This document shows, piece by piece, positions 23,910 to 60,972 of a stretch of 64,000 bases of DNA. Both the position numbers and the translations under genes were made by a program. The stretch is from Candidatus Azambacteria bacterium. Its GTDB lineage: Bacteria; Patescibacteriota; Minisyncoccia; GWC2-36-17; M10-OD1-4. How positions within the stretch are numbered: the first letter of the stretch is position 1; each line of letters begins with the position of its first letter. The stretch is taken from the NCBI GenBank assembly GCA_027048495.1, contig JALTWS010000011.1, positions 173 to 64,172 of the forward strand. The letters run 5' to 3'. The notes beneath the pieces are model-generated. The model worked only from the letters and a program-made list of their open reading frames with translations, was not told the origin of the DNA and made no database searches.

Positions 23910-24626
23910 ATGAAAAAGTACAAAGCGGTGGATTTTCTTGTAATATTTTTTGTAGGTGGGTTATCAGGTGTTTTTTTTACTTTTTTTGTTGTGCCAAAGC
24001 TTGCGGAGTTTGGAGTCAAAACAGCGCAAAAAGCTGTTAACCAAACTATAATAGTAAACAAAACCGAAAAATTATTTGTTCAAGAAGAGGAAATTTTAGA
24101 TAATATAATAGAGGAAGCAAAAAAATATACCGTATATGTTAAATCAAAAAGCGGAAATTTATTTTTATCTTCCGGAAGTGGAGTTATAATTGGATCTAAC
24201 GGGCTTATAGTAACAAGAAAGGAAGCAATTAATGCGGAAGCGGAAATAGTTGTGGAAAGAAACGGAAATGAATTGGAAGCGGAAGTTATAAAGGAAGGAA
24301 ATGGAAACGGGCTTGTCCTTTTAAAAGTTAACGACAAAGAAAGCAACTTTCCCGTAATTTCTTTTTCTTCTCCAAAAGTCGGCAAAAAAGTTTTTATGTT
24401 AGGAAGAAAAAGAGGAACTGCAGAAGATAAGTTTTTTATAAACAAAGGCATTATAAAAATAATAGATGATGGAATATTAGAAACCAATATTGTTGAAAAC
24501 GCTGGATTAATTTCAGGAACTCCTTTGATTGATTACTCTGGCAATTTAGTTGGCATCAATTTTATAGGTTTGGACGGCTTTGTATTTTCAGTTTCTTCAG
24601 ACATTATAAAGGAATTTGCGTTTTAA
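23910..24626 (+). CDS. Membrane-anchored trypsin-like (S1/HtrA-like) serine peptidase domain protein
   Basis: N-terminal TM; GSGVIIGSNGLIVT and GLISGTPLIDYSGNLVGINF resemble the S1C GNSGGPL region. Confidence 0.45.
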   Translation: MKKYKAVDFLVIFFVGGLSGVFFTFFVVPKLAEFGVKTAQKAVNQTIIVNKTEKLFVQEEEILDNIIEEAKKYTVYVKSKSGNLFLSSGSGVIIGSNGLIVTRKEAINAEAEIVVERNGNELEAEVIKEGNGNGLVLLKVNDKESNFPVISFSSPKVGKKVFMLGRKRGTAEDKFFINKGIIKIIDDGILETNIVENAGLISGTPLIDYSGNLVGINFIGLDGFVFSVSSDIIKEFAF

Positions 24627-24638
24627 CTTATTCTTTCC

Positions 24639-24766
24639 GGAAATTTCCACCCCATTTCCATATAATTTCCTAAAAAATTTGAATAGGAAATTATATGGAA
24701 ATGGGGTGTTGCTTTTTTTGGGAAAATAGCATATACTTCTGGCAAATATAAGATTAGGAAATTTCC
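24639..24766. repeat. GGAAAT/ATTTCC hexamer array A (11-bp phased) with a 25-bp perfect inverted repeat
   Basis: ATTTCC at 24643, 24654 and 24665; GGAAAT at 24686 and 24697. The inverted repeat is CACCCCATTTCCATATAATTTCCTA (24648-24672) against TAGGAAATTATATGGAAATGGGGTG (24684-24708). GGAAATTTCC palindromes at 24639 and 24757. Confidence 0.85.
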
Positions 24767-24770
24767 ATAT

Positions 24771-25520
24771 ATGTATAACCTTGATTTTGAAGACAACAAA
24801 AAATGGGGAAGTGTACTTGAGGTAACTGTTGCTGTTTGGAAGGTTTCTGATGCCTCTATGAGCGATAACTTCTTAAAAGAGGAACTTAAAAAAACAGCAA
24901 AGAATATTTTAATTTTTTATACATATTATTTTTCTTCTTCAAACTTTGAAGATAAAAAATTAGAAAACAAGCTTATCTATTATCTGGATAAAATGATAGC
25001 TTTGCTTTCTTTGTCCCAGAGGCTTTCCAAGTTAAAGGAGATAAACTTTGTAATTTTAAAAAATGAATACAAAAAAATAAAATTTGAACTGTTGGCAAAA
25101 ATAGACCAAAGAAATATTCAAAACAAAAATAACAGTAAAAAAAGTACATTAGATGAAAGTCAGGGGTTGGAAACCTCTCAAGATTTAGAAGAAAATAAAG
25201 TTACTGAGAAAAAAAAAGAAGAAGAGGAGTTTAAAAAACAACAACAAGAAGAAAGTGAGCAGAAAGAACAAAACTCAGCAATAAAAAAAACCAAAACAAT
25301 AAAAAACAAAACTTATGATTTAAGTCCAAGACAGCAGGATATAATTGATCTTTTAAAAAGAAACCCCGATGCTAAAATAAGGCCAAAAGATATAGCAATG
25401 AGTTTTCCAAAAGTAACTCCAAGAACCATAAGGACAGACCTTAAAATTTTGTGTGATAAAAATATCTTAAAAAGATCAAGCAGGAAAGGACAATCTGTTT
25501 TTTACTACTTAGTTAAGTAA
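24771..25520 (+). CDS. Transcriptional regulator with C-terminal DeoR/HrcA-like winged HTH
   Basis: C-terminus LSPRQQDIIDLLKRNPDAKIRPKDIAMSFPKVTPRTIRTDLKILCDKNILKR resembles the DeoR-type HTH (TIRRDL); acidic K/E-rich linker; N-terminal helical domain of unknown family. Confidence 0.5.
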   Translation: MYNLDFEDNKKWGSVLEVTVAVWKVSDASMSDNFLKEELKKTAKNILIFYTYYFSSSNFEDKKLENKLIYYLDKMIALLSLSQRLSKLKEINFVILKNEYKKIKFELLAKIDQRNIQNKNNSKKSTLDESQGLETSQDLEENKVTEKKKEEEEFKKQQQEESEQKEQNSAIKKTKTIKNKTYDLSPRQQDIIDLLKRNPDAKIRPKDIAMSFPKVTPRTIRTDLKILCDKNILKRSSRKGQSVFYYLVK

Positions 25521-25528
25521 ATTTAAAC

Positions 25529-25676
25529 GGAAATTATATGGAAATGAATAGGAAATGAATAGGAAATAATTAGGAAATGAATAGGAAATTAAATTTCCTA
25601 TTCATTTCCTAATTATTTCCGCATAATTTCCATATAATTTCCTATTCATTTCCTAATTATTTCCTATTTAATTTCT
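25529..25676. repeat. GGAAAT/ATTTCC hexamer array B: 6 direct plus 7-8 inverted copies at exact 11-bp spacing
   Basis: GGAAAT starts at 25529, 25540, 25551, 25562, 25573 and 25584; ATTTCC starts at 25593, 25604, 25615, 25626, 25637, 25648, 25659 and (25671, degenerate); symmetry centre about 25591. Confidence 0.9.
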
Positions 25677-26411
25677 CAAGTTGGGGTTCAAATTTAGATA
25701 AAAGTGATGTGCTTTTTACATTTGCTTTTGAAAAAAATTTATATTTTGTTTTTTGAGAAAATTTTTGGTAGTGTTCTTTTTTAAAATTTAAGTTTTGCAA
25801 TTTTAATTTTTTGTTTTTTGAAAATTTTGAGTTTTTTATATTTTTGTTTGTTTTTGTTTTTTGAAAAATAAAAATTAACTTTTGTGTATAACTTTGCAAA
25901 CAAAATTTAGCAAAAAATTATTAAAGAACTTTTATTTTAAAATGCAAATTTGCTTGCAAAGTTATCCACAAAAAAAATTTTAAAAAACAGCAAAGTTTTT
26001 TAGAAAGAAAACAACTTTTAAAAAATCGTTTATTTTTAAGCTTTTTTCTTTTGTATTTGAATATGTTTTTTTGTGGGGTTTGTAATTTATAATGTGTTTG
26101 CGTTTGTTGATAGAAGTTTTTATATTTGCTATAATTTATGTAGCTTTGGGTAAAATGCTTGTAAATGCTTTGGGCTATTGATATACTTTTAAAAAGATGA
26201 TAAAATAGACTTGCAAGCTTGAGGTTCTTTTTGTGTATTTAATTTTTTCTCGGCAATAAATTTTTGAATCGCTGTTTCGCATAGCGGATAGTGGTTCAAA
26301 AATTTGTTGCTGGGTTCTGGTTAAGCGGTTTGAAAAAAGGAAAGAACTTTGAAAATTTAATAGCAACAACAGTAGGTTTTGGAAGAGTCTTGGTTTGAAA
26401 GCAGTCAGTGT

Positions 26412-26556
26412 TAGGAAATATTAGGAAGTTGTTAGGAAATGATTAGGAAATTTCCTGATGCAAACTTCATTAGGAAATTTTCCAAGGAAGGGATTAAAAG
26501 CTTTTGCTTGTTAATTTCCGTTTCCATTTCTTAGAAAAGTAAGTTCGTTTCCTAAA
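26412..26556. repeat. TAGGAAAT array C upstream of the giant surface-protein gene
   Basis: TAGGAA at 26412, 26422, 26433 and 26444 (10-11-bp spacing) and at 26471; inverted (A/G)TTTCC at 26514, 26520 and 26547. Confidence 0.8.
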
Positions 26557-26800
26557 ATAGGTTTTCTAACATTATCACTGAAAAAAGCTTGGAGTTAGCT
26601 GATCTCTTGTTCTGAAAAAATTTGTCAATTTGGTTAATTAGTTTGTTTGATACATAGAGTTAGGTCGATCCCTTTTTTGGGGAACTCGATTCTAATTGTA
26701 TTGAGAGGATAAATCATTAATTAGTATTTACTTTGTAAAGCAACATAATTAAGTAAACTTATCTGCCTTTGGCAGACAAGTTTGCGAAAAAATAATTAAT

Positions 26801-29800
26801 ATGAACGCATTATCAAGTAAAGCTACTGAGAAATTTAAGCAATTTCTTGCGATAGCTTTAGCTTTGGTTACAACTGTTGTTTTGTCTGGTATTGCAACAG
26901 TAATATCAGCAAACGCAGCTGGTGACGATATACTACAAGAAGGTAGCCTTATAAAGGCTCCTGATAGGCCAGAGGTTTATATTATAAATACTAAAGCTCA
27001 TGGCCAATACGCTGGATGGAAGAGGCACATATTCAATCCTGATGTGTTTAATATGTACGGTCATTTGAGTTGGGATGCTATAAAAATAGTGCCACAGTCA
27101 GTTATTGACATGTATGAAACTTCTAACCTTTACAGAGCAGATGGAGATCCAAGAGTGTATTACTTAAAAGAAGAAGGATCAACAGCTGTTAAATATCACA
27201 TTCAAGATGAAGCAGCATTTAACGCTTATGGTTTCAGCTGGGATCAAGTCTTCATAGTTAACGAAAGAGAAAGAGATTATTATCCAACAGGTTATGTAAT
27301 AACAGCTACTTCAGGTCTTCCAGGACAACAAAACAATAACAACAACGGAGGACAACAAGGGGGAACAACTCCTGTTGGAAGCGGACTTACAGTAAGTGTG
27401 GCTTCTGACAATCCGGTTGCGGATACAATTCTTTCAGATGACACATCAAACCAATATCCGCAAGCTTTGATTCCTTTCTTGAAGGTAAATTTTGCTGCTG
27501 GAAATGATGGAGATGTAAAAGTTACATCAGTAAGCTTCAAAAGAACAGGTATAGCATCAGACTCTGATCTTGGAAATCTATACCTTTATGATGGAGAAAT
27601 GAGGGTTGCTGAATACACATCATTTAGCGACAGAGTTGTAACATTTACAAATCCATCAGGATTGTTTACTGTTCCAAAAGGAACAACAAAGACAATCACC
27701 TTAAAAGGTGACCTAGCAAGAGGGTCAACTCCTGTTTCTGCATCAAAGACAATAGGATTTGATCTTGTTTCAGCTTCTGATGTAACAACAGACGGCGCTG
27801 CTGTTTCAGGATCATTCCCAATTATGGGAAATAAGATGGCAACAGCTCAGGTGTCTGATCTTGGATACCTTTACATTGACGCTTATGAAACAACAAATCC
27901 TTCATCTTTGAAGGGTGATGCAACAAACCAAGAGTTGTGGAGATTCAGCCTTATTTCTGGAAATCAAGATATGGAAGTAAGAAAGATTAAGCTTACAATG
28001 GTTGGAACAATCTCACCAACAGATATTCAAAATTTAAAGCTTGAGGTTGGAGGTGTTCAGGTTGGATCAGCTCAAGCTATTGCTTCTGACAACACAGTTA
28101 TATTTGACCTTTCATCAAATCCTATAAGGATTAACTCAGGTCAAACAAAGATTGTTTCTTTGAAGGGTGATATGAATGGAGGAGCAGGAAGGAATTTTTA
28201 CTTCTCAATTCAAAGATCATCTGATGTTGTGGTTTATGATAGAGGATATGGAGTATTTGTCACAATGGCAAAGGATACTCAAACAGGAGCATTTGGTATC
28301 GTAAAACCAACATCAGCAACTTCAGTTGATGCCGGAACATTGACGCTTAGTGTTGCAACAGACTCACCAACAGGAAATATTCCTGCTTCTGCAACAGGAG
28401 TTACATTGGCTAAGTTTGGATTTTATGCATCAGGAGAGTCTGTAAAAGTTGACAACCTTTCAGTAAAATGTAATTCAAGCAATACAGGACTTTACATTGA
28501 TAACGTAAAGCTTCTTCTTGAAGGTTCACAGGTTGGATCAACTGCAACAACACTTCAATGTAACAATTCAGCTACTGTAAGCTTCACATTTGGAAATACA
28601 TTCCAAGTTCCTGCAGGAACAACAAAATACTTAACAATTGTTGCTGATACTACAGATTCTACTGTATCAGACGGTAATACAATAGCTGTAAGTTTAGTTG
28701 CTGGATCAGGAAATGCTCAAGGATTATCAACATTAAACTCAATAAGCACAACTGATCAAACAGCAAGAACTGTAACAGTTAAATCAGGAGCAGCTACTGT
28801 TGCTAAAAACACAGCATTTGGAGATAAAACATCTTCAAATCCAACAGGAACAGTTAATGCTTCTGGAGTTAAGATTGGATCATTTGTTATAACTGCAGGA
28901 GCTGGAGAGGCTATTGATGTAACACAGATAACTCTTGCTGATGATGCAACAACACAATTGGGAGACAACTTCCAAAACTTGATGCTAAAAGACAGCAACG
29001 GAAATCAGATTGGTTCAACAATAGCAACTCTTAATACAACAGCAGGAACATATACATTTACACCTGCATCTCCTATCAGGATAAATGCAGGACAACAGTT
29101 TGTTGTAGATGTATTTGCTGATATTAAGAGTTCTGCTGCTGATACAGGAACCTCTTTGTCACCGGTTGCAAAAGTCAACAGCGTAACAGCAACAGGAGTA
29201 AGCACATCATCTGATGCAAGTTACACAACAGCAGTAAACTTGCAAACAGCTTACATAGCTTCAAGTGGTAACTTGACAGTTACAACAGGAGCAGATACTC
29301 CTATAGCTCAACAGCTAGTTATGGGATCAACAGATGTCGCTTTGGCAACATTTAAGCTAGAAGCTAATGCCGCAGAGGACATCATAATCTCTGACATAAC
29401 AGTTTCTGATCAAGTTTCTTCAGGAGCAACAGGAACACTTAAGAACTTGAAGCTTTATGTAGATGGTGTTCAAGTTGGCCAAACTGTCCAGTTGTCTGGA
29501 ACAGATTCAACATCAACTTATGCAAACGCTAATTTCTCAGGATTAAATCTTGTAATCCCAAGAAATAGCTCAAAGACATTGACAGTTAGGGCCGATGTAA
29601 CATCATACGATGATGGAGCTTCAGCAGGATCAACTCATAAGATCGCTCTTCTTGTAAACAAAGGAGGCGGAAGTGAGTCAATAACTGCAAAAGGAGCATC
29701 ATCTGGAGCATCTATAACAGGAGCATCTCTTGATTATGGAACATCTCCAGATGCAGATCAGACAGCAAACACAATGACAGTATACGCTACAAAAGTATCT

Positions 29801-30268
29801 GTTGCGTTTGCTTCTGACTCTCCTTCAGGAGCAGCTGGTCCTGCAGCAGGAGCTGTTGTTATGAAAGTTGTAGTTTCTAACTCATCAAATGTTGGAAACT
29901 ACTCAGCAACGGTTAAACTTATGAACTTTGCAATGAATTCTGTCAACTTTGGAACAACAAATACTAAAGCCTTGACAGTTTACAAAGATTCAATAGCAAG
30001 TGGTAATCAAGTTGCTACAACAAACTATCCAACAGGAGTGCAAGTTAGTGATTCTGCAATAACAGATGCTAACTTCACTGATGTTGAGATAGCAGCTGGA
30101 TCTTCAAAGACATTCATCGTTACTTTGGACACCTCAGAAGCTGGAGCAACTGATTCACTTTCTGTAGGTATGTCTCAAGGTGACCTTGAGTGGAGAGACA
30201 GCAAGGTAACAACCAACATTACCACAGTTGACAGCTTACCGTTGCTAAGCAAGACATTGACTTACTAA
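26801..30268 (+). CDS. Large secreted Thr/Ser/Gly/Val-rich repetitive surface protein (S-layer protein or adhesin candidate)
   Basis: Sec signal peptide (...VISANA|AGDD), about 230-aa N-terminal domain, then about 8 tandem roughly 100-aa beta-rich repeats with the recurring pattern L-K-L-x-V-G-G-V-Q-V-G...I-R-I-N-x-G-Q; codon and GC usage differ from neighbours (highly-expressed-gene-like); terminator immediately downstream. Confidence 0.7.
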   Translation: MNALSSKATEKFKQFLAIALALVTTVVLSGIATVISANAAGDDILQEGSLIKAPDRPEVYIINTKAHGQYAGWKRHIFNPDVFNMYGHLSWDAIKIVPQSVIDMYETSNLYRADGDPRVYYLKEEGSTAVKYHIQDEAAFNAYGFSWDQVFIVNERERDYYPTGYVITATSGLPGQQNNNNNGGQQGGTTPVGSGLTVSVASDNPVADTILSDDTSNQYPQALIPFLKVNFAAGNDGDVKVTSVSFKRTGIASDSDLGNLYLYDGEMRVAEYTSFSDRVVTFTNPSGLFTVPKGTTKTITLKGDLARGSTPVSASKTIGFDLVSASDVTTDGAAVSGSFPIMGNKMATAQVSDLGYLYIDAYETTNPSSLKGDATNQELWRFSLISGNQDMEVRKIKLTMVGTISPTDIQNLKLEVGGVQVGSAQAIASDNTVIFDLSSNPIRINSGQTKIVSLKGDMNGGAGRNFYFSIQRSSDVVVYDRGYGVFVTMAKDTQTGAFGIVKPTSATSVDAGTLTLSVATDSPTGNIPASATGVTLAKFGFYASGESVKVDNLSVKCNSSNTGLYIDNVKLLLEGSQVGSTATTLQCNNSATVSFTFGNTFQVPAGTTKYLTIVADTTDSTVSDGNTIAVSLVAGSGNAQGLSTLNSISTTDQTARTVTVKSGAATVAKNTAFGDKTSSNPTGTVNASGVKIGSFVITAGAGEAIDVTQITLADDATTQLGDNFQNLMLKDSNGNQIGSTIATLNTTAGTYTFTPASPIRINAGQQFVVDVFADIKSSAADTGTSLSPVAKVNSVTATGVSTSSDASYTTAVNLQTAYIASSGNLTVTTGADTPIAQQLVMGSTDVALATFKLEANAAEDIIISDITVSDQVSSGATGTLKNLKLYVDGVQVGQTVQLSGTDSTSTYANANFSGLNLVIPRNSSKTLTVRADVTSYDDGASAGSTHKIALLVNKGGGSESITAKGASSGASITGASLDYGTSPDADQTANTMTVYATKVSVAFASDSPSGAAGPAAGAVVMKVVVSNSSNVGNYSATVKLMNFAMNSVNFGTTNTKALTVYKDSIASGNQVATTNYPTGVQVSDSAITDANFTDVEIAAGSSKTFIVTLDTSEAGATDSLSVGMSQGDLEWRDSKVTTNITTVDSLPLLSKTLTY

Positions 30269-30314
30269 GTCAATCTTGCAAAAAAGGCAAAAGCCAAAAG
30301 CTTAGCCTTGCAAA

Positions 30315-30350
30315 ACACCCCCGTTTTTACGGGGGTGTTTTGTTGTATTT
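30315..30350 (+). terminator. Strong intrinsic terminator
   Basis: ACACCCCCG-ttttta-CGGGGGTGT (9-bp perfect stem) followed by TTTGTTGTATTTTT. Confidence 0.8.
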
Positions 30351-30385
30351 TTGGGAGTTTTGTTTTAAAATGGCTAGTAAGTTTT

Positions 30386-32623
30386 ATGGAAAAGTTTGTA
30401 AAAAATTTAATACTTTTGTTTTTTGTTTTTCCGATTTTTTTTGTTAGCTGGACGATGTATCCTTGGAATTTTGGGAAGACGGTTTATTTTTTAATTTTTG
30501 TTGATTTGGTTTTTGCTTTGGCTTTGTTTTTTATTTTGTTTTTTAGAGGGAAACTGAAGAAATTTTTGCTTTTGGATTATGCGGTTTTTGGCTTTTTGCT
30601 TGTTATGCTTTTTTCTTCTTTTTTTGGAGTTGATTTTGAAAAAAGCTTTTTTGGCGACCAGCAAAGAGCGCAAGGAACATTTGTGTTTTTGCATTTTGGG
30701 CTGTTTTATCTGCTTTTAAGGCAATTTTTTAACTCAAAAAAGGATTGGCTTTTGGCATCTTTGATTTCTGTTTTTTCTGCTTTTGTTTCTTTGGTTGTTG
30801 GATTTTTGGGCTATTTTAAGATTGCTTTTGAAAGCTTATCTTTTGGTGGCAGGATATCCGGACTTGAAGGGAATCCTATATTTTTTGCCGGGTATTTGCT
30901 TTTGCCTGCATTTTTGTCTTTTTTGGCGGTTTTATTTTTTGATGAGAAGCTAAAACACCAGTTTAAGCTGTTGTTTGGATTAAGAAATTGGCTTTATTTT
31001 TTGGGATTTTTGTTGTTTTTTGGAATATTTTTCTCTCAAGCAAGAGGAGTTGCGCTTGGGATTATCTTGTCGCTTTTGTTTTTTTGGCTGATTTTTTCTT
31101 TTTCTGAAATATTCAAAAAAAGTATAAAAAGAATTGTTTTTTTGGTCGGTGTCGTTTTTTTTGCTTTTTTGGCATTTTTGTATGTTTTTAACCAAAAATC
31201 AAGCTTTTTTGCAGACAACTACCCGGAAGTTTCAAGGTTTTTGGATATAACAACAGAAAATAAAACGGCAAAAACCAGACTTATAGCTTGGGACATAGCA
31301 AAAGAAGGGTTTTTAAAAAGGCCAATTTTTGGTTTTGGTCCGGAAAATTATCAGGCAGTTTTTAATAAATATTATAATCCAGATCTCTTGAAGTATTCTT
31401 TTTCAGAAACTGTCTGGGACAAGCCTCATAATTATTTTTTGGAAATACTTGCAGAAGAAGGTATTTTTGGAATTATTTTTTACATTTTTATTATATTTGT
31501 TGCTTTTTATTATGTGTATTATTTTTATAAGCAAGCAGAAAACAAAAGAGAAAAAGTTTTTGCAATTGTATTTTTTGGAGCCTTGCTGGCGTTTTTGACA
31601 AAAAACGCATTTGCTTTTGAAACATTCTCTTCTTTGCTTATGTGGTTTTTTATGCTTGCTTTTTGCGCGTTTTTATATGAGTTTGCCAAAAACAAAGAAG
31701 AGTTTTATGAGCTTAAAAACAAAGCTATTTTGAATTTTTCATTTTTTGTTGCTTTGGTGTTTGTTGGGTTTTCTTTATTTTTTTCAGCAAATATGCTCAA
31801 GAGTTCCTACTATATGAGTTCTGCAAGAGATGCCCTTGGCATAAACTCTGTTTACAAATGGCAAGAGAGCGCAAAAAAAGCAATTTCTGCTTTTCCTTTT
31901 GAGGTTGAAAATGCTGTGTTTTTGACAAAAGACCTTTCTGATTTTGACAATAAAAATTTGCTTACCGCAGATGTTTTAAAAAATATATATCCTGATATTG
32001 AAAGTGTGCTTTTGAAAAGATATAATAAAAGCCAAGATTTTTTAAGCGCTTTTTGGTTGGGACAGCTTTACGCTCTTTTGGGAGAGTATGTTGACAGCAA
32101 ATATTACCAAGATTCAATAAAGTATTTTAACGCCGCTTGGAAAGTGAACAAAGACAGGCAAGCTGTTCCTTTGCTTTTGGGGAAAGTTTACTCTTCTTTG
32201 GGAGAAAACAAAAAAGCTATTGAAATTTTAGAAGAGCTTGCCAGAAAAAACGATTCTTTGCCAGAGCCGCATTGGTTTTTAGGGCTTGCTTATTTGGAAG
32301 ATGGGCAGGAGGAGAAAGGCATTTTGGAGCTTGAAAAAGGAAAAGAGTTTGGACTTAATTTGAAAAATAATATATTATTTTTATTAGACCTTTACCTTAA
32401 AAGGGAAGAGTACGAAAAAACAATACCTTTGTACGAAAGACTTATTAAAATTGACCCAAAAAACCCAACTTATTATCATGATCTTGGATTGATGTATTTT
32501 GCTGTTGGTGACAAAGATAAGTCTTTTGAGTATTTTCAAACAGCAATCCAAATGGATCCTTCCTTAAAAGATAGGGTAAAGAAGTTTTTTAAACTAAATG
32601 GTATAACAATTAACTTTGATTAA
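30386..32623 (+). CDS. Wzy_C-family (O-antigen ligase / PglL-like O-oligosaccharyltransferase) membrane protein with C-terminal TPR domain, paralog 1
   Basis: Polytopic membrane domain with periplasmic-loop motif RLIAWDIAKEGFLKRPIFGFGPENY...WDKPHNYFLEILAEEGIFG (Wzy_C signature with conserved His); C-terminal about 250 aa TPR repeats; ATG 30386 chosen because the longer ORF overlaps the upstream terminator. Confidence 0.7.
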   Translation: MEKFVKNLILLFFVFPIFFVSWTMYPWNFGKTVYFLIFVDLVFALALFFILFFRGKLKKFLLLDYAVFGFLLVMLFSSFFGVDFEKSFFGDQQRAQGTFVFLHFGLFYLLLRQFFNSKKDWLLASLISVFSAFVSLVVGFLGYFKIAFESLSFGGRISGLEGNPIFFAGYLLLPAFLSFLAVLFFDEKLKHQFKLLFGLRNWLYFLGFLLFFGIFFSQARGVALGIILSLLFFWLIFSFSEIFKKSIKRIVFLVGVVFFAFLAFLYVFNQKSSFFADNYPEVSRFLDITTENKTAKTRLIAWDIAKEGFLKRPIFGFGPENYQAVFNKYYNPDLLKYSFSETVWDKPHNYFLEILAEEGIFGIIFYIFIIFVAFYYVYYFYKQAENKREKVFAIVFFGALLAFLTKNAFAFETFSSLLMWFFMLAFCAFLYEFAKNKEEFYELKNKAILNFSFFVALVFVGFSLFFSANMLKSSYYMSSARDALGINSVYKWQESAKKAISAFPFEVENAVFLTKDLSDFDNKNLLTADVLKNIYPDIESVLLKRYNKSQDFLSAFWLGQLYALLGEYVDSKYYQDSIKYFNAAWKVNKDRQAVPLLLGKVYSSLGENKKAIEILEELARKNDSLPEPHWFLGLAYLEDGQEEKGILELEKGKEFGLNLKNNILFLLDLYLKREEYEKTIPLYERLIKIDPKNPTYYHDLGLMYFAVGDKDKSFEYFQTAIQMDPSLKDRVKKFFKLNGITINFD

Positions 32624-32627
32624 AAAT

Positions 32628-33200
32628 ATGAAAAAGGCAATATTAATATTTTTTGTGGCAGTTGTTGCTGTTTTGGCATTTTATTTTTTTGAAAATGCCA
32701 AGGGCAAACCGTTTTTGTCAATATCTGAGATTGAAGAGCTTGCAAAAAAAGACAGCAATATGGAGTTTTATGCAAAAGAACTTAAAAGGGCGGTAGAAGA
32801 GTTCAAAGAAGACGATCCGAAATCGTATTCTGCTTTGGGACTTGCTTGGAAAGGTGTGGCAGACCAGACAAACAATGAAAAATACTACAAAAATGCGCTT
32901 TTGGTTTATCAGGAGGCAATTGATTTAACTAACAGAAAAAATACATTGTTTATTTTAAATGCTGGAAACATGGCATCTTATTTGGGAGATTACGAGCTTG
33001 CAGAAAAGTATTATGAGGAAGCAACCTATGTTGCTCCCGGGGACCAGGACGGATATATAAAGCTTTATGAGCTTTACAGATACAAACTTGGAAATCCAAA
33101 AGATAAGATAATAGCCGTGCTTGATAGAGGAATAGACAGAATGGTAAATCCAGCATATCTTAAACAGCTAAAAGACGCTTATTTAAGCGAAGAAAAATAG
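32628..33200 (+). CDS. Membrane-anchored TPR-repeat protein
   Basis: N-terminal TM (ILIFFVAVVAVLAFYFF) then TPR-like helices (YYKNALLVYQEAIDL..., LGDYELAEKYYEEATYVAPGD). Confidence 0.5.
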   Translation: MKKAILIFFVAVVAVLAFYFFENAKGKPFLSISEIEELAKKDSNMEFYAKELKRAVEEFKEDDPKSYSALGLAWKGVADQTNNEKYYKNALLVYQEAIDLTNRKNTLFILNAGNMASYLGDYELAEKYYEEATYVAPGDQDGYIKLYELYRYKLGNPKDKIIAVLDRGIDRMVNPAYLKQLKDAYLSEEK

Positions 33201-33201
33201 C

Positions 33202-35469
33202 GTGATTGCATTAGATTTATTAAAAATAGCAAAATATTTTCTGTTTGCGTCTGCTTTTGTCCCTGTTTTGGTTTGGGATAAGTTTTTGTATCCTTTTGTC
33301 ACTTTAAGGGCAAGCGCATTTTTATTTTTTGTTGAATTGGCTTTGCTTGCTTTTTTGGTTTGGGTGTTTTTTTATCAAAAAGGAAGTTTTACGTTCAAAA
33401 AAAGCTGGCTTTTTTTGTCTTTTTTTGCATTTTTTGTTATTAGCTTTGTATCTGCTGTTTTTGGTGAGTCATTTTTTGTAAGCTTTTTTGGAACGATAGA
33501 AAGGTGGTGGGGAGTTTTTACTCTTTTGCATTATTTGGTGTTTTTCTTTTTGGCAAGAGCATTGTTTGAAAAAGATGACTGGATGACATTTTTTAGGCTT
33601 TTTGTTTTTGTGTCTTTTTTTGTTTCTTTGATTGGGCTTTTGCAAAAAGCAGGGTTGGGGCTTTTTGCTTTTTCTGGGGGCAGGATTATAGGAACTTTAG
33701 GGAATGCCGCTTACTTTTCCGTATATCTTTTACTTAACTTTGCTTTGTCTTTGTATCTTTTTTTCTCAGAAAGGCATAAAAAATATAGCTTTTTTTATGT
33801 TGCAGTAGCGTTTTTAAATTTTGTTGCATTTTTGTTTACAGGAACAAGAGGAACTTTTTTAGGATTTATTTTTGGAGTATTTTTAGTTTCTTTTTTGTAT
33901 ATTTTTTTGGGTAAAAGCAAAAAAGTAAAAGCATCTTTTCTTTTTGTTTCTTTTTTGATTACAATTTCTGTTTTGGTTGCATTTTTGGCAAAAGACACTA
34001 ATTTTGTAAAAAATACTCCGTTTTTGAGCAGGATTTCCACAATATCTTTGGAAGGAGGAAGTATAAGCACAAGATTTATAAGTTGGCAAGCGGCTTTGGA
34101 GGGTTTTTTTGATAATCCTTTTTTGGGAGTTGGTCCGGAAAATTATAATATAGTATTTAATAAATATTTTAAGTCAGACTATTATCTTTATGCGGCGTCT
34201 GAGCCTTATTTTGACAGGGCGCACAACAACTTTTTGGACATACTTGCAACTTCAGGTATTTTTGGGCTTTTGTCTTATCTTTTTATGGTTTTTTTAATAT
34301 TTTATATTTTGGCAAGGCTTTACAGTCAAAAAAGGATTCAAGAAAAAGAGCTTTTGTTTTTTGTGTTTGTATTTTCTGCTTACTTTGTCCATTTATTTTT
34401 TGTTTTTGATGATATAACTTCATTTTTATATTTTGTGTCGTTTTTAGCATTTTTGGATTTTTTATTTTCAGAAAGAAAAATATTTTCCGAACAAGAAAAT
34501 AAAAGTTTTGATGCTTTTAAAAAAACAGTAGTTTTTGCTGGTATTGTTTTGGTTATTTTTTCTAGTTGGCAGTATAACCTAAAAGTTGCTTATGCTTCAA
34601 AAATAGCAAATGATGCTTTTTTGGAAGATCAAAAAGGAAATTTAAAAGAGGCAGTAGATTTATACTTAAAGTCTCTTTCGCTTAATTCAAAGCCCCAAAA
34701 AGATATAGTGTATTCTTTTGTTGATTTTTTATATAGCAAATTTCCGTTGTATGAAAAGGATATAAAAATTTCAAAAGATGATGATTTGGCGTATCAGAAA
34801 GGGCTTTTGGAAGCCAAAAAATACATAAAAAAGCAAATAGAGTTAAACCAAAAAGATGCTCTGCTTTTTGTGAAGCTGGCAAATATAAACAGCGCTTTGT
34901 ATGTTGTTAAAAAAGATATAAGTTTTACAAAAAAAGCAGAGGAAGCATTAAAGACTGCTATATCTTTAAGCGAGGATAGGCCTCAGTATTACCATTTTTT
35001 GGTTGATTTGTATATTTTGTCAGGGCAAAATCAAAAAGCGCTTAAAACAGCAGAATTTGCATTAAAAATGAATGAAAAATACAATGCCAGCTATTTTTAT
35101 GTTGCAAAAGCGTATATTGCCCAAAAAGAGTATGAAAAAGCAAAAGAATACTTGGACTTGTCTATGGAGAAAAAATATCTACCTTCTTTGGGAGAGGTGG
35201 TGTTTTTTGCTTCTGAGATGGAAAAGTCGGGAAAATACCAATATGCCGCAGATATTTATAAAAAATACTTGCAAAGAAATAAAAAGGATGCTTTGCCTGC
35301 AGTTAGGCTTGTTATTTTAAGCTTAAAAATGAGCAACGAAAAAGATGCTATAATGTATGCTAAGATGTCAGCTGATATTAACCCAAGCTTAAAAAAAGAT
35401 GTTGACTATATAATATCAGAAATTAAAAAAGGCAATAAGGAAAATATTCTTAAAATACTAACACAATGA
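33202..35469 (+). CDS. Wzy_C-family O-antigen ligase/O-OTase-like membrane protein with C-terminal TPR, paralog 2 (GTG start)
   Basis: RFISWQAALEGFFDNPFLGVGPENY...FDRAHNNFLDILATSGIFGLLSY; C-terminal TPR repeats. Confidence 0.7.
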   Translation: MIALDLLKIAKYFLFASAFVPVLVWDKFLYPFVTLRASAFLFFVELALLAFLVWVFFYQKGSFTFKKSWLFLSFFAFFVISFVSAVFGESFFVSFFGTIERWWGVFTLLHYLVFFFLARALFEKDDWMTFFRLFVFVSFFVSLIGLLQKAGLGLFAFSGGRIIGTLGNAAYFSVYLLLNFALSLYLFFSERHKKYSFFYVAVAFLNFVAFLFTGTRGTFLGFIFGVFLVSFLYIFLGKSKKVKASFLFVSFLITISVLVAFLAKDTNFVKNTPFLSRISTISLEGGSISTRFISWQAALEGFFDNPFLGVGPENYNIVFNKYFKSDYYLYAASEPYFDRAHNNFLDILATSGIFGLLSYLFMVFLIFYILARLYSQKRIQEKELLFFVFVFSAYFVHLFFVFDDITSFLYFVSFLAFLDFLFSERKIFSEQENKSFDAFKKTVVFAGIVLVIFSSWQYNLKVAYASKIANDAFLEDQKGNLKEAVDLYLKSLSLNSKPQKDIVYSFVDFLYSKFPLYEKDIKISKDDDLAYQKGLLEAKKYIKKQIELNQKDALLFVKLANINSALYVVKKDISFTKKAEEALKTAISLSEDRPQYYHFLVDLYILSGQNQKALKTAEFALKMNEKYNASYFYVAKAYIAQKEYEKAKEYLDLSMEKKYLPSLGEVVFFASEMEKSGKYQYAADIYKKYLQRNKKDALPAVRLVILSLKMSNEKDAIMYAKMSADINPSLKKDVDYIISEIKKGNKENILKILTQ

Positions 35470-37571
35470 GTGAATATACTTTAAAAAACATAATAAAATT
35501 TGTGCTTGCTGTGTCTTTTTTTGCTCCGCTTATTGTTGCAAAAGGCTTTTTCTTTCCTTTTATAGTTCCAAAGACTATATTTTTCCAATCTTTGGTTCAG
35601 GTTGCGCTTTTGCTTTACATATTTTTGGTTATTTCAAACAAAAAATATTTGCCAAAGCTGGACCTTTTGTCAAAAAGCGTTTTGGTTTTTTATTTTATTT
35701 ATGTTATGTCGGCTATATTTGGAGAAAATATATTTAGGAGCTTTTTTGGCAACTTTGAGAGAATGCTTGGCGTTGTGAATTTAACTCATTTTGTTGCTTT
35801 ATTTTTTATATTAAAAGGCATTTTAAAAGATAAGCAGGAATGGATTTTTATGTTTCGCTGTTTTGTTTTTGCCGGTTTTTTGGTTGCTTTGTATGGAATT
35901 GCCCAAAAGTTTGGTTTCTCATTTTTGTTTGAATCCAAAGATCCAAGAATATCATCAACCATAGGCAATGCCGCTTTTTTTGCGGCGTATATGCTTTTTG
36001 TCTTTTTTATTTCTATTATTTTAATTCAAAAAGATAAAGTACAGGCAAGGCCTTTTTATTATACTGTTTTGCTTTTGAGCATGTTGTCAATTTATCTTAG
36101 CGAAACAAGGGGCGCTATTTTGGCGCTGGTTTTTTCTTTGTTGTTTTTGTTGGCGCTTTTTGTTTTAAAAAAGAAAGATGAGCTTGCAAGTATAACTTTA
36201 CAAAACAAAAATAAAATACTTGCTTGGATTTTTGGCGTGCTAGTTTTGTTTTTTGCTGTTTTTTTGATAAATCAGGATGCTTTTTATGGGCCGATAAAAA
36301 GAATAATGTCTATATCTTTTTCTGATGCTACTGTAAAAACAAGGATAGTATCTGCAAAAATAAGCGCAGAGGGAATAAAAGAGCATCTAATTTTAGGATG
36401 GGGACCGGAAAACTACAATCTTCTTTTTGATAAGTATTATGACCTTAGAATGTACCCTCAGGAAAGCTGGTTTGATCATGCGCATAATATAATATTTGAC
36501 ACACTGTCCAACTCAGGAATTTTAGGGCTTTTGTCTTATGTTTTTGTTTTTGTTGCTCTTTTTTATCTGCTTTTTGCTTATACAAAGTCAAACAAAGATG
36601 ACTACAAAACAGCGTATGTCATAGTGGCAATGATGATAGCTTATTTTTTCCAAAACCTTTTTGTTTTTGATGCTTTGGCAACTTATTTGCCTTTCTTTTT
36701 GGTGTTGTCTTTTGCTTCTTTTTTAACTTCACAAAAAGAAGAAGATAAAATAGAGAACAAAAAATTGCAGGTTCCTATCCAAGCTTTTGTGTTGCTTTTT
36801 TTAGCGTTTTGGTTTTTGTTTTACAATACAAATGTAAGGCCTGCGCTTGCTTCAAAATATCTTATTGAAGGTTCTTTGTATTTTGAATATGGAAGATATG
36901 ATTTGGCATTTGAATATTTTGAAAAATCCTATGAAAAATCTTTACAAGGAAAGCCGGAGATAGCAACAATGATGGCAGAGAAGGCCAACCAGATATACAA
37001 AAAAGAAAACATATCAAAGGAAGTTAAAGATTTTTTTGTCCAAAAAGCGATTCAAAAAGCAGAAGATGCGCTAAAGCGGGAGCCAAAAAACACTAGATAT
37101 TATATGACCTATGCTAGTCTATCTAACGCAAAAAGAGATGACAGGGAGTTTTTAAAAAAGCTGGATAAAATGATGGAAGAAAATTTACCAAAAAGTCCCA
37201 AAAAGCCTATTTATTATTTTCAGTGGTATCAAATAAATGTATTTTTAGGAGATTTTAAAAAAGCAGAGCAAATTATTAAAAAATCGTTAAGCCAGAAGGT
37301 TACTTACAATGGGACTTTGATATTAGCGAATTTTTACAAGGGTCAAAAAAGAAACGAAGATGCAAAAAATACTTATATGAACTTTGTTCAAAAAAGACAA
37401 GACGCAACAGTCCAGCAACTTGTCAGGATAGCTGTTGAGCTGGCAAGAATTGGGTATGACAAAGAAGCAATTGATGTTGCAAATACAATTTCAAAAAGAT
37501 ACGGATATTCGGATAATATAAGTAGTTTTGTGCAGGATATAAAAAATGGAAGATTTAACCAAAAACAATAA
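35466..37571 (+). CDS. Wzy_C-family O-antigen ligase/O-OTase-like membrane protein with C-terminal TPR, paralog 3
   Basis: RIVSAKISAEGIKEHLILGWGPENY...FDHAHNIIFDTLSNSGILGLLSY; ATGA overlap with paralog 2; C-terminal TPR. Confidence 0.7.
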   Translation: MSEYTLKNIIKFVLAVSFFAPLIVAKGFFFPFIVPKTIFFQSLVQVALLLYIFLVISNKKYLPKLDLLSKSVLVFYFIYVMSAIFGENIFRSFFGNFERMLGVVNLTHFVALFFILKGILKDKQEWIFMFRCFVFAGFLVALYGIAQKFGFSFLFESKDPRISSTIGNAAFFAAYMLFVFFISIILIQKDKVQARPFYYTVLLLSMLSIYLSETRGAILALVFSLLFLLALFVLKKKDELASITLQNKNKILAWIFGVLVLFFAVFLINQDAFYGPIKRIMSISFSDATVKTRIVSAKISAEGIKEHLILGWGPENYNLLFDKYYDLRMYPQESWFDHAHNIIFDTLSNSGILGLLSYVFVFVALFYLLFAYTKSNKDDYKTAYVIVAMMIAYFFQNLFVFDALATYLPFFLVLSFASFLTSQKEEDKIENKKLQVPIQAFVLLFLAFWFLFYNTNVRPALASKYLIEGSLYFEYGRYDLAFEYFEKSYEKSLQGKPEIATMMAEKANQIYKKENISKEVKDFFVQKAIQKAEDALKREPKNTRYYMTYASLSNAKRDDREFLKKLDKMMEENLPKSPKKPIYYFQWYQINVFLGDFKKAEQIIKKSLSQKVTYNGTLILANFYKGQKRNEDAKNTYMNFVQKRQDATVQQLVRIAVELARIGYDKEAIDVANTISKRYGYSDNISSFVQDIKNGRFNQKQ

Positions 37572-38108: not shown

Positions 38109-38143
38109 ATCCCTAGGGTTAATCCTAGGGATAACCCTAGGAT
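38109..38143. repeat. CCTAGG-core 12-bp tandem repeats (3 units)
   Basis: ATCCCTAGGGTTAATCCTAGGGATAACCCTAGGAT; same family as 46066-46130. Confidence 0.8.
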
Positions 38144-46065: not shown

Positions 46066-46130
46066 CCCCTAAGGACAACCCTAGGAATAATCCTAGGAAT
46101 AATCCTAGGGATAATCCTAGGGATAATCAT
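46066..46130. repeat. CCTAGG(G/A)ATAAT 12-bp tandem repeats (5 units)
   Basis: CCTAAGGACAAC CCTAGGAATAAT CCTAGGAATAAT CCTAGGGATAAT CCTAGGGATAAT. Confidence 0.85.
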
Positions 46131-46159: not shown

Positions 46160-46197
46160 TTACTTAACTTTCTCACGATCGTGAGAAAGTTAAGTAA
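46160..46197. repeat. 38-bp perfect palindrome, copy 1 (TTACTTAACTTTCTCACGATCGTGAGAAAGTTAAGTAA)
   Basis: Identical copies at 54218-54255 and 60187-60224. Confidence 0.9.
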
Positions 46198-46311
46198 ATG
46201 CTTATTAAATGAATGAATGTTTGATTATTTTATTTTTTATTTGACTTATATTGTTTAGTTAAATGAAAGTAAGGTTTTTAAATTTTTATTAGTTTTTTAA
46301 AAATTATAAAT

Positions 46312-46361
46312 TCAAAATAGTTAAAATAAAACACGATCGTGTTTTATTTTAACTATTTTGA
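46312..46361. repeat. 50-bp perfect palindrome sharing the CACGATCGTG core
   Basis: TCAAAATAGTTAAAATAAAACACGA|TCGTGTTTTATTTTAACTATTTTGA. Confidence 0.85.
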
Positions 46362-60950: not shown

Positions 60951-60972
60951 AAGTTAACTTTAATAAACAAAA

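What the first reader, a model, noticed from the sequence alone, without database searches (positions are those of the whole stretch)
24639..25676. Convergent arrays of GGAAAT hexamers at exact 11-bp helical phasing bracket a DeoR-like wHTH regulator gene
Downstream of the regulator gene (24771-25520) lie six GGAAAT copies spaced exactly 11 bp apart (25529...25584). Seven or eight ATTTCC copies at the same exact spacing follow (25593...25671), forming a roughly 150-bp imperfect super-palindrome centred at 25591. Upstream of the same gene a second array (24639-24766) has ATTTCC x3 at 11-bp spacing, GGAAAT x2 at 11-bp spacing, a 25-bp perfect inverted repeat, and GGAAATTTCC palindromes, one abutting the start codon. 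Eleven-bp phasing places every hexamer on one face of the helix, as in plasmid parC centromeres and iteron-type filament-forming operators. The enclosed protein has a C-terminal winged HTH (TIRTDLKIL) and is the obvious candidate binder. This looks like a self-contained, previously undescribed regulator-operator (or partition/origin-like) module.
Basis: seen in the sequence. Interest (0 to 1): 0.8.

Follow-up and report, generated by a model that had tools for sequence, protein, structure and literature searches.

The report
Phased GGAAAT operator arrays, CPR regulator
A small DNA-binding regulator gene in an uncultivated ultra-small (Patescibacteria) bacterium is flanked by rows of the short motif GGAAAT spaced one DNA turn apart, and comparison with relatives suggests these rows are the protein's own docking sites, used to control itself and a large cell-surface protein operon next door.

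Summary

The context is chromosomal Patescibacteria. GC skew is constant, and there is no Par or Rep gene and no plasmid or phage homologue. A partition or origin element is therefore not supported.

The 249-aa protein is a four-helix bundle, a disordered linker and a C-terminal DeoR-type winged helix.

- All 12 orthologous loci (30-49% identity, 28-52% GC) keep (A/T)AGGAAAT boxes at 10-12 or 19-22 bp spacing, in the same three places where the contig reaches them: around the regulator's promoter, right after its stop codon, and in the leader of a ~1,100-aa Ig-like surface-protein gene.
- Loci with that surface gene but no regulator have no arrays.
- A distant family member in an unrelated context still has a 3+3 convergent array after its stop.
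- Members with a different recognition helix have different boxes.

Best reading (0.6): an uncharacterised autoregulated repeat-binding regulator and its operators. Binding is not shown. A conserved association with exact DnaA boxes is unexplained.

The parts
24639..24708 (.). Box cluster A, upstream part: GGAAATTTCC palindrome, 3 inverted and 2 direct GGAAAT boxes at 11-bp spacing. These form a 25-bp perfect inverted repeat.
   Evidence: I13
24648..24719 (+). Intrinsic terminator of the upstream Trypsin_2 gene (23910-24626). The 25-bp stem is built from the boxes and is followed by TTGCTTTTTTT.
   Evidence: -47.1 kcal/mol, z -8.3. Relatives have a hairpin plus T-run at the same place.
24709..24737 (+). 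Promoter of the regulator gene: TTGCTT, 17 nt, TATACT. The spacer holds a box-like GGGAAAAT (24720-24727).
   Evidence: TTG.TTTTT and TATACT are invariant columns in an alignment of 8 loci. Relatives carry an inverted box, TTTTCC(T/C)TAT, in the spacer. The window copy alone does not pass the generic promoter scan.
24755..24766 (.). TAGGAAATTTCC palindromic box between the inferred transcription start and the ATG.
   Evidence: Relatives have AATAAGGAAAT downstream of the -10.
24771..25520 (+). Regulator gene, 249 aa. Four-helix bundle (residues 6-127), disordered linker (126-180), C-terminal DeoR-type winged helix (186-247).
25529..25589 (+). Box cluster B, direct arm: six GGAAAT boxes at exact 11-bp spacing, starting 9 nt after the stop codon.
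25593..25676 (-). Box cluster B, inverted arm: seven exact boxes at 11-bp spacing plus one degenerate copy. With the direct arm it forms a ~150-bp imperfect palindrome.
   Evidence: I1-I6; -69 kcal/mol as RNA
25743..25867 (+). Three copies of the AT-rich repeat TTTTTGTTTTTTGAAAA. Function unknown. GC-rich relatives have GTTTCAYG repeats at this position.
   Evidence: (D5)
25883..25970 (.). Convergent DnaA-box pair: TTATACACA on the - strand at 25883-25891 and exact TTATCCACA at 25962-25970, the only exact copy in the window. They sit at the ends of an AT-rich inverted repeat.
   Evidence: I14. An exact box is present in all 11 other orthologous loci.
26107..26206 (+). Two tandem sigma-70-type promoters: P1 TTGATA-17-TGCTATAAT (26107-26135) and P2 TTGATA-17-TAAAAT (26178-26206).
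   Evidence: 11/12 and 10/12 matches. An extended -10 is conserved in relatives.
26344..26358 (+). Conserved GAACTTTGAAAAT element in the leader. It resembles the Gram-positive rRNA boxA (NusB/NusE site); this comparison is from memory and was not tested.
26412..26553 (.). Box cluster C, in the transcribed leader. Four direct boxes at 10-11 bp, a GGAAATTTCC palindrome, and further boxes on both strands.
   Evidence: Conserved in position in relatives.
26662..26693 (+). Conserved leader RNA hairpin 1 (AGGTCGATCCC...GGGGAACTCGATTCT). It has G-U pairs and an inner stem of variable length.
26753..26785 (+). Conserved leader RNA hairpin 2, just upstream of the start codon. Ten of its 15 pairs show compensatory changes.
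26801..30268 (+). Candidate target gene: 1,155-aa secreted protein with a signal peptide and a chain of Ig-like beta-sandwich domains.
   Evidence: It lies downstream of the regulator in all 10 orthologous loci whose contig reaches that far.
30308..37571 (+). Rest of the putative envelope operon: three Wzy_C/TPR proteins and a TPR protein.
   Evidence: The same gene order is found in other Patescibacteria.

Best explanation
The arrays are operator sites for the protein encoded between them.

**The protein.** It belongs to an uncharacterised, apparently Patescibacteria-restricted family. It has an N-terminal four-helix bundle (a likely oligomerisation hub), a ~55-75-aa disordered charged linker and a C-terminal DeoR-type winged helix.

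**Inferred binding mode.** Each winged helix reads one (A/T)AGGAAAT box. Boxes spaced one or two helical turns apart let several tethered domains line up on one face of the DNA, head to tail, and the arrays end in a head-to-head (palindromic) box.

**The three clusters.**
- Cluster A flanks and enters the regulator's own promoter. I infer autoregulation.
- Cluster B, 13 boxes right after the stop codon, is a high-valency anchor that travels with the regulator gene. As RNA it also forms a 3'-end hairpin.
- Cluster C lies +200 to +400 in the leader of a conserved surface-protein/Wzy_C operon.

**Inferred action.** An oligomer bridging B and C, about 880 bp apart, would loop out promoters P1 and P2 and the DnaA boxes. 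Alternatively, binding at C would block elongation. Either way, expression of the envelope operon would be modulated.

**Shown here:** motif statistics, conservation of the boxes, co-occurrence of boxes and regulator, and the protein fold.

**Inferred, not shown:** binding itself, oligomeric state, sign of regulation, and looping.
For: 1. **Non-random and local.** There are 15 phased pairs against 0.04 expected, all within 1.9 kb. 16 of 18 TAGGAAAT octamers lie in these clusters.
2. **Conserved with the gene.** Twelve orthologous loci (the window, L003, L004, L006, L008, L011-L015, L100, L159) share 30-49% protein identity and range from AT-rich to about 52% GC. Every locus that extends past the stop codon has AATAAGGAAAT-type boxes directly after it, and those that reach further also have them around the promoter and in the leader of the large gene. 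Spacings are 10-12 or 19-22 bp.
3. **Enriched.** Box density is 2.8-10.8 per kb in these gaps against 0.35-3.1 per kb elsewhere (binomial p = 2e-49).
4. **Absent without the regulator.** Three loci carry the same surface gene but an ECF sigma/anti-sigma pair in place of the regulator, and none has an array.
5. **Travels with the regulator.** The distant family member P0034 (L161) sits in an unrelated context, yet has 3 direct + 3 inverted GGAA(A/T) boxes at 10-11 bp right after its stop codon.
6. **Box sequence tracks the recognition helix.** TIR(N/T)DLK goes with GGAAAT. TIRRDLD (P0052) goes with ATAGGACAA/TTGTCCTAT boxes. TLRYDLQ (P0097) goes with TAGCGAC-type repeats.
7. **A box lies in the promoter.** A box or box-like sequence sits inside the conserved promoter spacer of the regulator gene.
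9. **Known precedent for the spacing.** SARP/OmpR-type winged-helix proteins use direct repeats spaced 11 or 22 bp (PMC10936776). Recombination directionality factors use repeats one helical turn apart (bioRxiv 10.1101/784983, abstract shown).
Against: - No binding data exist. All of the evidence is association.
- In L161 the 3' array lies between two convergent stop codons, where there is no promoter to regulate. Cluster B therefore may not be a classical operator.
- Clusters A and B fold into very stable hairpins, and cluster A clearly doubles as a terminator. Part of the symmetry may be selected at the RNA level.
- L091 shows the same boxes at a locus with no regulator gene on the 4.7-kb contig, so another binder cannot be excluded.
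- Spacing is not always 11 bp. One relative has boxes 8 bp apart in its cluster C.
- The recognition-helix/box correlation rests on only four classes.
- The link to the large gene is positional only.
Confidence: 0.6

Rival explanations
1. The boxes are bound by a different factor, for example a global or replication-linked DNA-binding protein that works together with DnaA. The adjacent winged-helix gene would then be one of its targets, not the binder.
For: - Exact DnaA boxes have a background frequency of 0.012 per kb, yet they accompany the arrays in three independent contexts. One is present in every orthologous gap, 3-4 boxes are intermixed with AATAAGGAAAT repeats in L091, and one lies 20 bp from a GGAAAT box upstream of the L161 regulator.
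- L091 has boxes but no regulator gene on its contig.
Against: - Arrays track the presence of the regulator gene: 12 of 12 loci with it, 0 of 3 surface-gene loci without it.
- Arrays follow the regulator into an unrelated context (L161).
- Box sequence changes when the recognition helix changes.
- L091 is only 4.7 kb, so the regulator could lie elsewhere in that genome.
Confidence: 0.13
2. The arrays act mainly as RNA. The long hairpins would serve as terminators, mRNA-stabilising ends or attenuators. Alternatively, the repeated GGA motifs in the transcripts would be read by an RNA-binding protein, as in CsrA or TRAP systems.
For: - Cluster A is a textbook stem plus U-tract.
- Cluster B folds at -69 kcal/mol.
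- Cluster C lies in a transcribed leader that has other covarying hairpins.
- The L161 array sits between convergent genes, as a bidirectional terminator would.
Against: - In most relatives cluster B is 3-7 direct repeats with only one inverted copy, so most boxes cannot pair.
- Boxes occur in both orientations and as GGAAATTTCC palindromes, which is what double-stranded DNA recognition predicts.
- Boxes lie within the non-transcribed promoter spacer.
- One- or two-turn spacing has no meaning for RNA.
- No Rfam family matches above its threshold.
Confidence: 0.12
3. The element is centromere-like or origin-like, as the first reader offered as an alternative. The array next to the binder gene would work as parS, sopC, parC or tubC does, or as iterons beside DnaA boxes and an AT-rich region.
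For: - The 11-bp repeats resemble parC iterons.
- An array immediately 3' of the gene for its binder recalls sopC and P1 parS (from memory).
- DnaA boxes and AT-rich repeats lie 200-440 bp away.
Against: - GC skew is +0.12 to +0.31 in all but one 2-kb bin (that bin is +0.02) and never changes sign, and genes on both sides are co-oriented.
- Housekeeping synteny is conserved across species.
- No partition NTPase or Rep gene is present.
- There are no plasmid or phage homologues.
- Viral-contig hits to the pattern are unrelated perfect satellites.
Confidence: 0.04
4. The arrays are intrinsically curved DNA. Phased A-tracts of the AAAT/AAATT type every 11 bp would form a structural element or a site for a nucleoid-associated protein, with no dedicated sequence-specific reader.
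For: - Each box contains an A3T/A3T2 tract, and the boxes are phased close to the helical repeat.
- The region is the most AT-rich 2-kb bin of the window at GC 0.276.
Against: - The GG dinucleotide and the whole hexamer are conserved.
- Boxes keep the same sequence in relatives with about 46-52% GC, where the flanks are GC-rich.
- Other family members have boxes without A-tracts, such as ATAGGACAA and TAGCGAC.
Confidence: 0.05

Closest known systems
OmpR/PhoB/SARP-type activators on tandem direct repeats (pho boxes, afs box)
   Same: Winged-helix domains read short direct repeats separated by 11 or 22 bp, that is one or two helical turns, so they bind head to tail on one face (PMC10936776). 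The window's alternating spacers give a 22-bp super-unit.
   Different: - The winged helix here is DeoR-type, not Trans_reg_C.
- There is no receiver or BTAD domain.
- The arrays are much longer, at 13 boxes.
- The arrays are convergent/palindromic, and the main one lies 3' of the regulator gene, not at -35.
Plasmid centromeres with phased iterons: R1 parC/ParR (11-bp iterons) and pBtoxis tubC/TubR (12-bp repeats, winged-helix binder). Comparison from memory.
   Same: Many short repeats at about one-turn spacing lie next to the gene of a small DNA-binding protein. That protein is thought to coat the repeats cooperatively.
   Different: - No partner NTPase.
- Chromosomal, syntenic context.
- No plasmid homologues.
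- ParR is a ribbon-helix-helix protein.
E. coli DeoR and other looping repressors (from memory)
   Same: The HTH is DeoR-type. Three separated operator clusters lie a few hundred bp apart around the promoters, compatible with loop formation by an oligomer.
   Different: - The HTH is C-terminal.
- There is no DeoRC sugar-phosphate domain.
- The operators are multi-box phased arrays, not single 16-bp palindromes.
Recombination directionality factors (lambda Xis, phage 186 Apl)
   Same: Small winged-helix proteins bind direct repeats one helix turn apart and form short nucleoprotein filaments. Apl also acts as a transcription regulator (10.1101/784983, abstract shown).
   Different: - No integrase or att context.
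- The protein is larger, with a separate helical-bundle domain and a long linker.
MraZ on its own operon promoter (from memory)
   Same: An oligomeric regulator reads a series of short direct repeats at about 10-bp spacing, next to its own gene, and controls a cell-envelope operon.
   Different: - Unrelated fold (SpoVT/AbrB-like).
- Three repeats only.
- No 3' array.

Membership tests
DeoR family of transcription regulators | HTH_DeoR (PF08220) domain | tested here: inconclusive
   The window protein scores 18.2 bits against a cut-off of 21. Six of ten family relatives scanned pass at 21.3-32.2 bits. The TIRxDL signature is present.
DeoR family of transcription regulators | HTH at the N-terminus followed by a C-terminal DeoRC effector-binding domain | tested here: not met
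   The HTH is at residues 186-247 of 249. The N-terminal part is a four-helix bundle. There is no DeoRC hit.
Plasmid partition centromere (parC/ParR, tubC/TubR, sopC/SopB) | Array of short repeats at regular spacing beside the gene for the binder | tested here: met
   13 boxes at 11 bp start 9 nt after the stop codon.
Plasmid partition centromere (parC/ParR, tubC/TubR, sopC/SopB) | Partner NTPase gene (ParA, ParM or TubZ) in the same cassette | tested here: not met
   The neighbours are ClpB, DUF5656, Trypsin_2, the surface protein and Wzy_C/TPR proteins.
Plasmid partition centromere (parC/ParR, tubC/TubR, sopC/SopB) | Carried on a plasmid or prophage | tested here: not met
   Housekeeping genes span the window. 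Synteny is conserved in other species. There are no plasmid or phage homologues.
Iteron-type or chromosomal replication origin | DnaA boxes and an AT-rich repeat region beside the repeats | tested here: met
   TTATCCACA lies at 25962 and TTATACACA at 25883. AT-rich 17-mers (x3) lie at 25743-25867.
Iteron-type or chromosomal replication origin | Switch of GC skew and gene orientation (oriC), or a Rep initiator gene (plasmid) | tested here: not met
   GC skew stays positive throughout, and all flanking genes are on the + strand. No Rep-family hit.
OmpR/PhoB/SARP tandem-repeat regulators | Direct repeats separated by 11 or 22 bp | tested here: met
   Exact 11 bp in the window. Spacings are 10-12 and 19-22 bp in relatives. 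Criterion taken from PMC10936776.
OmpR/PhoB/SARP tandem-repeat regulators | Trans_reg_C-type winged helix | tested here: not met
   No Trans_reg_C hit. The best hits are HTH_11 and HTH_DeoR.
Intrinsic (rho-independent) terminator | Stable stem-loop followed directly by a U-tract at the end of a gene | tested here: met
   This applies to cluster A only: a 25-bp stem at -47 kcal/mol followed by UUGCUUUUUUU, 22 nt after the Trypsin_2 stop. Cluster B has the stem but no clear U-tract.
S23-ribosomal-protein / Avd-like four-helix-bundle proteins (PF05635, TIGR02436) | Sequence-profile membership | tested here: not met
   No Pfam or NCBIfam hit for residues 1-125.
S23-ribosomal-protein / Avd-like four-helix-bundle proteins (PF05635, TIGR02436) | Four-helix-bundle fold, forming a homopentamer | tested here: inconclusive
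Known RNA families (Rfam 15) | Match at the gathering score | tested here: not met
   Only two tRNAs are found in the window. In 25500-26850 there are only sub-threshold generic hairpin (miRNA-precursor) matches.

The most novel reading that the evidence does not exclude
The family may be a Patescibacteria-specific multivalent 'tethered winged-helix' hub protein. Its 3' convergent array would be a nucleation or bridging site, not a promoter operator. Together with the consistently adjacent DnaA boxes, it would couple DnaA or replication status to expression of the main cell-surface operon. That would make it a chromosomal, centromere-like regulatory nucleoprotein complex of a kind not described so far.
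Probability: 0.1. Interest if true: 0.75.

Novelty: new variant of a known kind. Interest (0 to 1): 0.5.

Why it matters
To my knowledge, few if any transcription factor-operator pairs have been characterised in Patescibacteria (CPR), and my two literature searches found none. These bacteria are uncultivated, have reduced genomes, and depend on their cell surface for an epibiotic life.

This locus offers a concrete, cheaply testable pair: a 249-aa protein and a defined 11-bp-phased box. The pair sits next to a very conserved operon for a secreted multi-Ig-domain protein and Wzy_C-type proteins.

The protein architecture is not covered by Pfam or NCBIfam. It combines a helical-bundle hub, a long disordered tether and a C-terminal DeoR-type winged helix. 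At least 361 cluster representatives share it at E <= 1e-10. A convergent array directly 3' of the regulator's own stop codon appears to be a family hallmark.

If binding is confirmed, three things follow:
- a recognition code for the family, since box sequence changes with the recognition helix;
- a handle on envelope regulation in CPR;
- a new example of how multivalency and helical phasing are used in small genomes.

There is also a practical point. The 150-bp palindrome breaks metagenome assemblies at this locus.

Tried and rejected
- **oriC or plasmid origin.** Rejected on the constant positive GC skew, co-oriented genes and absence of a Rep gene.
- **Partition cassette.** There is no NTPase gene, the context is chromosomal, and tblastn finds no plasmid or phage hit.
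- **Transposon or MITE ends.** Each cluster is itself palindromic, not a left/right pair. There is no transposase, and synteny is conserved at 30-49% protein identity.
- **CRISPR-like array.** The period is 11 bp, with no spacers.
- **Known RNA family.** None is found.
- **AT-rich low-complexity artefact.** Rejected because the same boxes are kept in relatives with 46-52% GC.
- **Paralogues of the regulator beside the other short-repeat arrays in the window.** None found with a profile search against all window ORFs.
- **Metagenome and viral scans for three phased RGGAAAT.** These gave 139 loci, of which 136 are unrelated, mostly perfect 11-bp satellites, so the DNA pattern alone is not diagnostic.
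- **Identifying the surface protein.** Pfam, NCBIfam and PDB sequence searches gave nothing useful. Only the predicted structure showed a chain of Ig-like domains.
- **Cluster look-ups for names of family members.** No names were returned.
Full report
**1. The observation**

- After the stop codon of ORF 24771-25520 there are six exact GGAAAT copies, starting at 25529, 25540, 25551, 25562, 25573 and 25584.
- Seven exact ATTTCC copies follow, at 25593 to 25659. Every step is 11 bp.
- The two arms form a ~150-bp imperfect palindrome centred at 25591 (I1-I6).
- Upstream of the gene lie three ATTTCC (24643, 24654, 24665), two GGAAAT (24686, 24697), a 25-nt perfect inverted repeat (24648-24672 / 24684-24708) and two GGAAATTTCC palindromes (24639-24648, 24757-24766).
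- GGAAAT-N5-GGAAAT occurs 15 times in the window against 0.04 expected from shuffles.
- 16 of the 18 TAGGAAAT octamers in 64 kb lie in this region.

Three things need adding or correcting.
- There is a third cluster at 26412-26553.
- The 25-bp inverted repeat is followed by a T-run and folds at -47 kcal/mol. It is also the terminator of the upstream Trypsin_2 gene.
- The eighth inverted copy is degenerate.

**2. Context**

The window is an ordinary chromosomal stretch of an AT-rich (about 32% GC) Patescibacteria genome.
- It carries two tRNAs, alanine racemase, ClpB, SecD, EF-P, L10 and L7/L12.
- Nearly all genes are on the + strand, and GC skew is positive in every 2-kb bin with no inflection.
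- The regulator has no homologue in the plasmid or phage collections.

This excludes oriC, a plasmid origin and a partition cassette.

**3. The protein**

- Pfam gives only sub-threshold HTH_11 and HTH_DeoR hits at residues 187-235.
- AlphaFold2 on a 20-sequence alignment gives three parts:
  - a confident four-helix bundle (residues 6-127);
  - a disordered segment (126-180, pLDDT below 50);
  - a compact winged helix (helices 186-197, 205-211 and 217-229, plus two strands).
- TIRTDLKIL lies in the third helix.
- A profile search of 1.84 billion cluster representatives finds 361 proteins at E <= 1e-10. Many of the 150 listed match the profile nearly end to end, so they share the two-domain layout.
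- Six of ten scanned members pass the HTH_DeoR threshold. None has a Pfam domain in the N-terminal half.
- The protein therefore carries a DeoR-type HTH in a non-DeoR architecture.

**4. Comparative evidence**

*Synteny.* Close homologues (30-49% identity) occur only in Patescibacteria MAGs: Parcubacteria, Azambacteria and one labelled Saccharibacteria. The gene order is conserved: (DUF5656, Trypsin_2), regulator, a 0.8-1.5-kb non-coding gap, a ~1,100-aa protein, then Wzy_C/TPR genes.

*Colinear elements in the gap.* The gap holds the following elements in the same order, where the contig reaches them, in nine fully sampled loci:
- phased boxes directly after the stop codon;
- an exact TTATCCACA;
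- one or two extended -10 promoters;
- a GAAC(A/T)TTGAAAA element (exact match in six of the nine);
- a second box cluster;
- two conserved RNA hairpins.

*Box consensus and spacing.* The consensus is AATAAGGAAAT in relatives and TAGGAAAT in the window. Spacing between successive boxes is 10-12 or 19-22 bp. One relative has an 8-bp run in its cluster C. The boxes persist in relatives with 46-52% GC (L014, L015, L100), so they are not an AT-richness artefact.

*Enrichment.* Box density is 2.8-10.8 per kb in these gaps against 0.35-3.1 per kb elsewhere (p = 2e-49).

*The regulator promoter.* It is conserved, with TTG.TTTTT and TATACT as invariant columns. A box or box-like sequence lies in its spacer, and boxes lie on both sides.

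**5. Which gene do the arrays go with?**

Homologues of the large protein are widespread in Patescibacteria (367 at E <= 1e-10).
- In three loci from other clades this gene is preceded by an ECF sigma/anti-sigma pair in place of the regulator. None of the three has an array.
- The distant family member P0034 (L161) lies between unrelated genes, convergent with a PAP2 gene. It still has 3 direct + 3 inverted GGAA(A/T) boxes at 10-11 bp immediately after its stop.
- P0052 (L160) sits upstream of an ECF sigma, an anti-sigma and the surface gene. It has ATAGGACAA/TTGTCCTAT boxes after its stop.
- P0097 (L158) sits in the same slot with TAGCGAC-type repeats.

Aligning these proteins shows that the recognition helix varies with the box. 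TIR(N/T)DLK goes with GGAAAT, TIRRDLD with GGACAA, and TLRYDLQ with a different box. The arrays therefore follow the regulator, and their sequence follows its recognition helix. This is the strongest available argument, short of experiment, that the protein reads the boxes.

**6. The candidate target**

The 1,155-aa protein has a signal peptide. Its confident model (pLDDT 85) is a chain of Ig-like beta sandwiches, and the best PDB match is the Ig-like domains of the adhesin PrgB.
- Three Wzy_C/TPR genes and one TPR-only gene follow it.
- The window has two strong tandem promoters, at 26107-26135 and 26178-26206.
- The leader is about 600 nt. Its hairpin next to the start codon has compensatory changes in 10 of 15 pairs.

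**7. Mechanism**

My best reading is an autoregulated, oligomeric, multi-box-binding regulator.
- Cluster A overlaps its own promoter.
- Cluster B is a high-valency site tied to the gene.
- Cluster C lies in the leader of the envelope operon.

Clusters B and C flank promoters P1 and P2 and the DnaA boxes. They are about 880 bp apart in the window and 560-830 bp apart in relatives, as measured. This geometry suits looping by a hub with long flexible tethers.

The one- or two-turn spacing matches what is known for SARP/OmpR-type winged helices (PMC10936776) and for recombination directionality factors. Binding, stoichiometry, the sign of regulation and looping are all inferred.

**8. Rivals and open points**

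- **RNA-level function.** It is real for cluster A, which is a terminator, and possible for cluster B. It cannot explain the direct-repeat arrays of relatives, the boxes in both orientations, or the box inside the promoter spacer.
- **A different binder.** This cannot be excluded. L091, from the same sample as one orthologue, has the same boxes intermixed with 3-4 DnaA boxes at another locus.
- **The DnaA boxes.** Exact DnaA boxes are rare (0.012 per kb in 818 kb of unrelated loci, and one in the whole window). Yet one accompanies the arrays in all 12 orthologous loci, in L091 and in L161. I have no tested explanation for this.
- **The array in L161.** It lies between convergent genes, which shows that the 3' array is not simply an operator for a downstream promoter.

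**9. Verdict**

The finding is real, non-random and conserved. The regulator-operator reading is supported by association. The partition/origin reading is not supported.

It is a new variant of a known kind, namely phased-repeat operators read by a winged-helix protein. What is new is an uncharacterised protein architecture and an unusual array placement, in a lineage with almost no known regulators.

Noticed in passing
window 46080-46128 and 38111-38141: Two arrays of a different motif, (A/C)CCTAGG(A/G)ATAAT, at 12-bp period (four and about 2.6 copies). One lies in the divergent gap between EF-P (-) and a UDG-family gene (+). The other lies just after a NUDIX gene. This looks like a second phased-repeat system in the same genome. 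No paralogue of the 249-aa regulator is nearby.
   Followed up: partly
window 60971-61010: TTACGT / CGTACTTACGTC repeats (about 3 copies, period 12) between the L10 and L7/L12 genes.
   Followed up: no
window 25883-25970; L091 2150-2260; L161 1030-1070: Exact or near-exact DnaA boxes accompany GGAAAT-type arrays in three independent contexts, although exact boxes are rare (0.012 per kb background, and one in the 64-kb window). In the window they form a convergent pair at the ends of an AT-rich inverted repeat.
   Followed up: partly
window 26753-26785 and 26662-26693: Two conserved RNA hairpins lie in the ~600-nt leader of the surface-protein gene. The one next to the start codon has compensatory changes in 10 of 15 pairs across 10 loci. 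There is no Rfam match.
   Followed up: partly
window 26344-26358: A conserved GAAC(A/T)TTGAAAA element in the leader resembles the Gram-positive rRNA-operon boxA antitermination site (recalled from memory, not tested).
   Followed up: no
L091 1900-2300: A metagenome contig from the same sample as one orthologue has four or five AATAAGGAAAT boxes at 11 bp. They are interleaved with DnaA boxes in the divergent gap between a YraN-like gene and a small RHH-NUDIX operon. This is a possible second regulon member.
   Followed up: partly
L052 294-660: A remnant ORF ends in a related winged helix (LNDRQ...RTARNDL). It is followed directly by AGAGGAAATTT x3 plus an inverted ATTTCC, the same 'array after the stop codon' layout on a different protein.
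   Followed up: no
L158 3900-4010; L160 4185-4300: Distant members of the regulator family have their own repeats. L158 has TAGCGA(C/T) x3 plus inverted CTAGTGGCTA. L160 has ATAGGACAA/TTGTCCTAT x6. In L160 the regulator precedes an ECF sigma/anti-sigma pair and the surface gene.
   Followed up: partly
L001 (contig end) and L002 (contig end): Two independent metagenome assemblies of this same organism stop 6-71 nt after the regulator's stop codon, that is, inside the palindromic array. The array breaks short-read assemblies.
   Followed up: no
L155-L157 (1450-3650): In other Patescibacteria clades the conserved surface-protein/Wzy_C operon is preceded by an ECF sigma factor and a putative anti-sigma (weak DUF5667) in place of the winged-helix regulator.
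   Followed up: partly
window 46163-46198 and 46318-46362: Two long perfect hairpins around CGATCG centres (the first reads aagttacttaactttctcacgatcgtgagaaagttaagtaa) lie in the EF-P/UDG intergenic region.
   Followed up: no
window 43667-45364: A 565-aa TrwB/VirD4-like coupling-protein ATPase with a treble-clef zinc finger lies in an otherwise housekeeping stretch.
   Followed up: no
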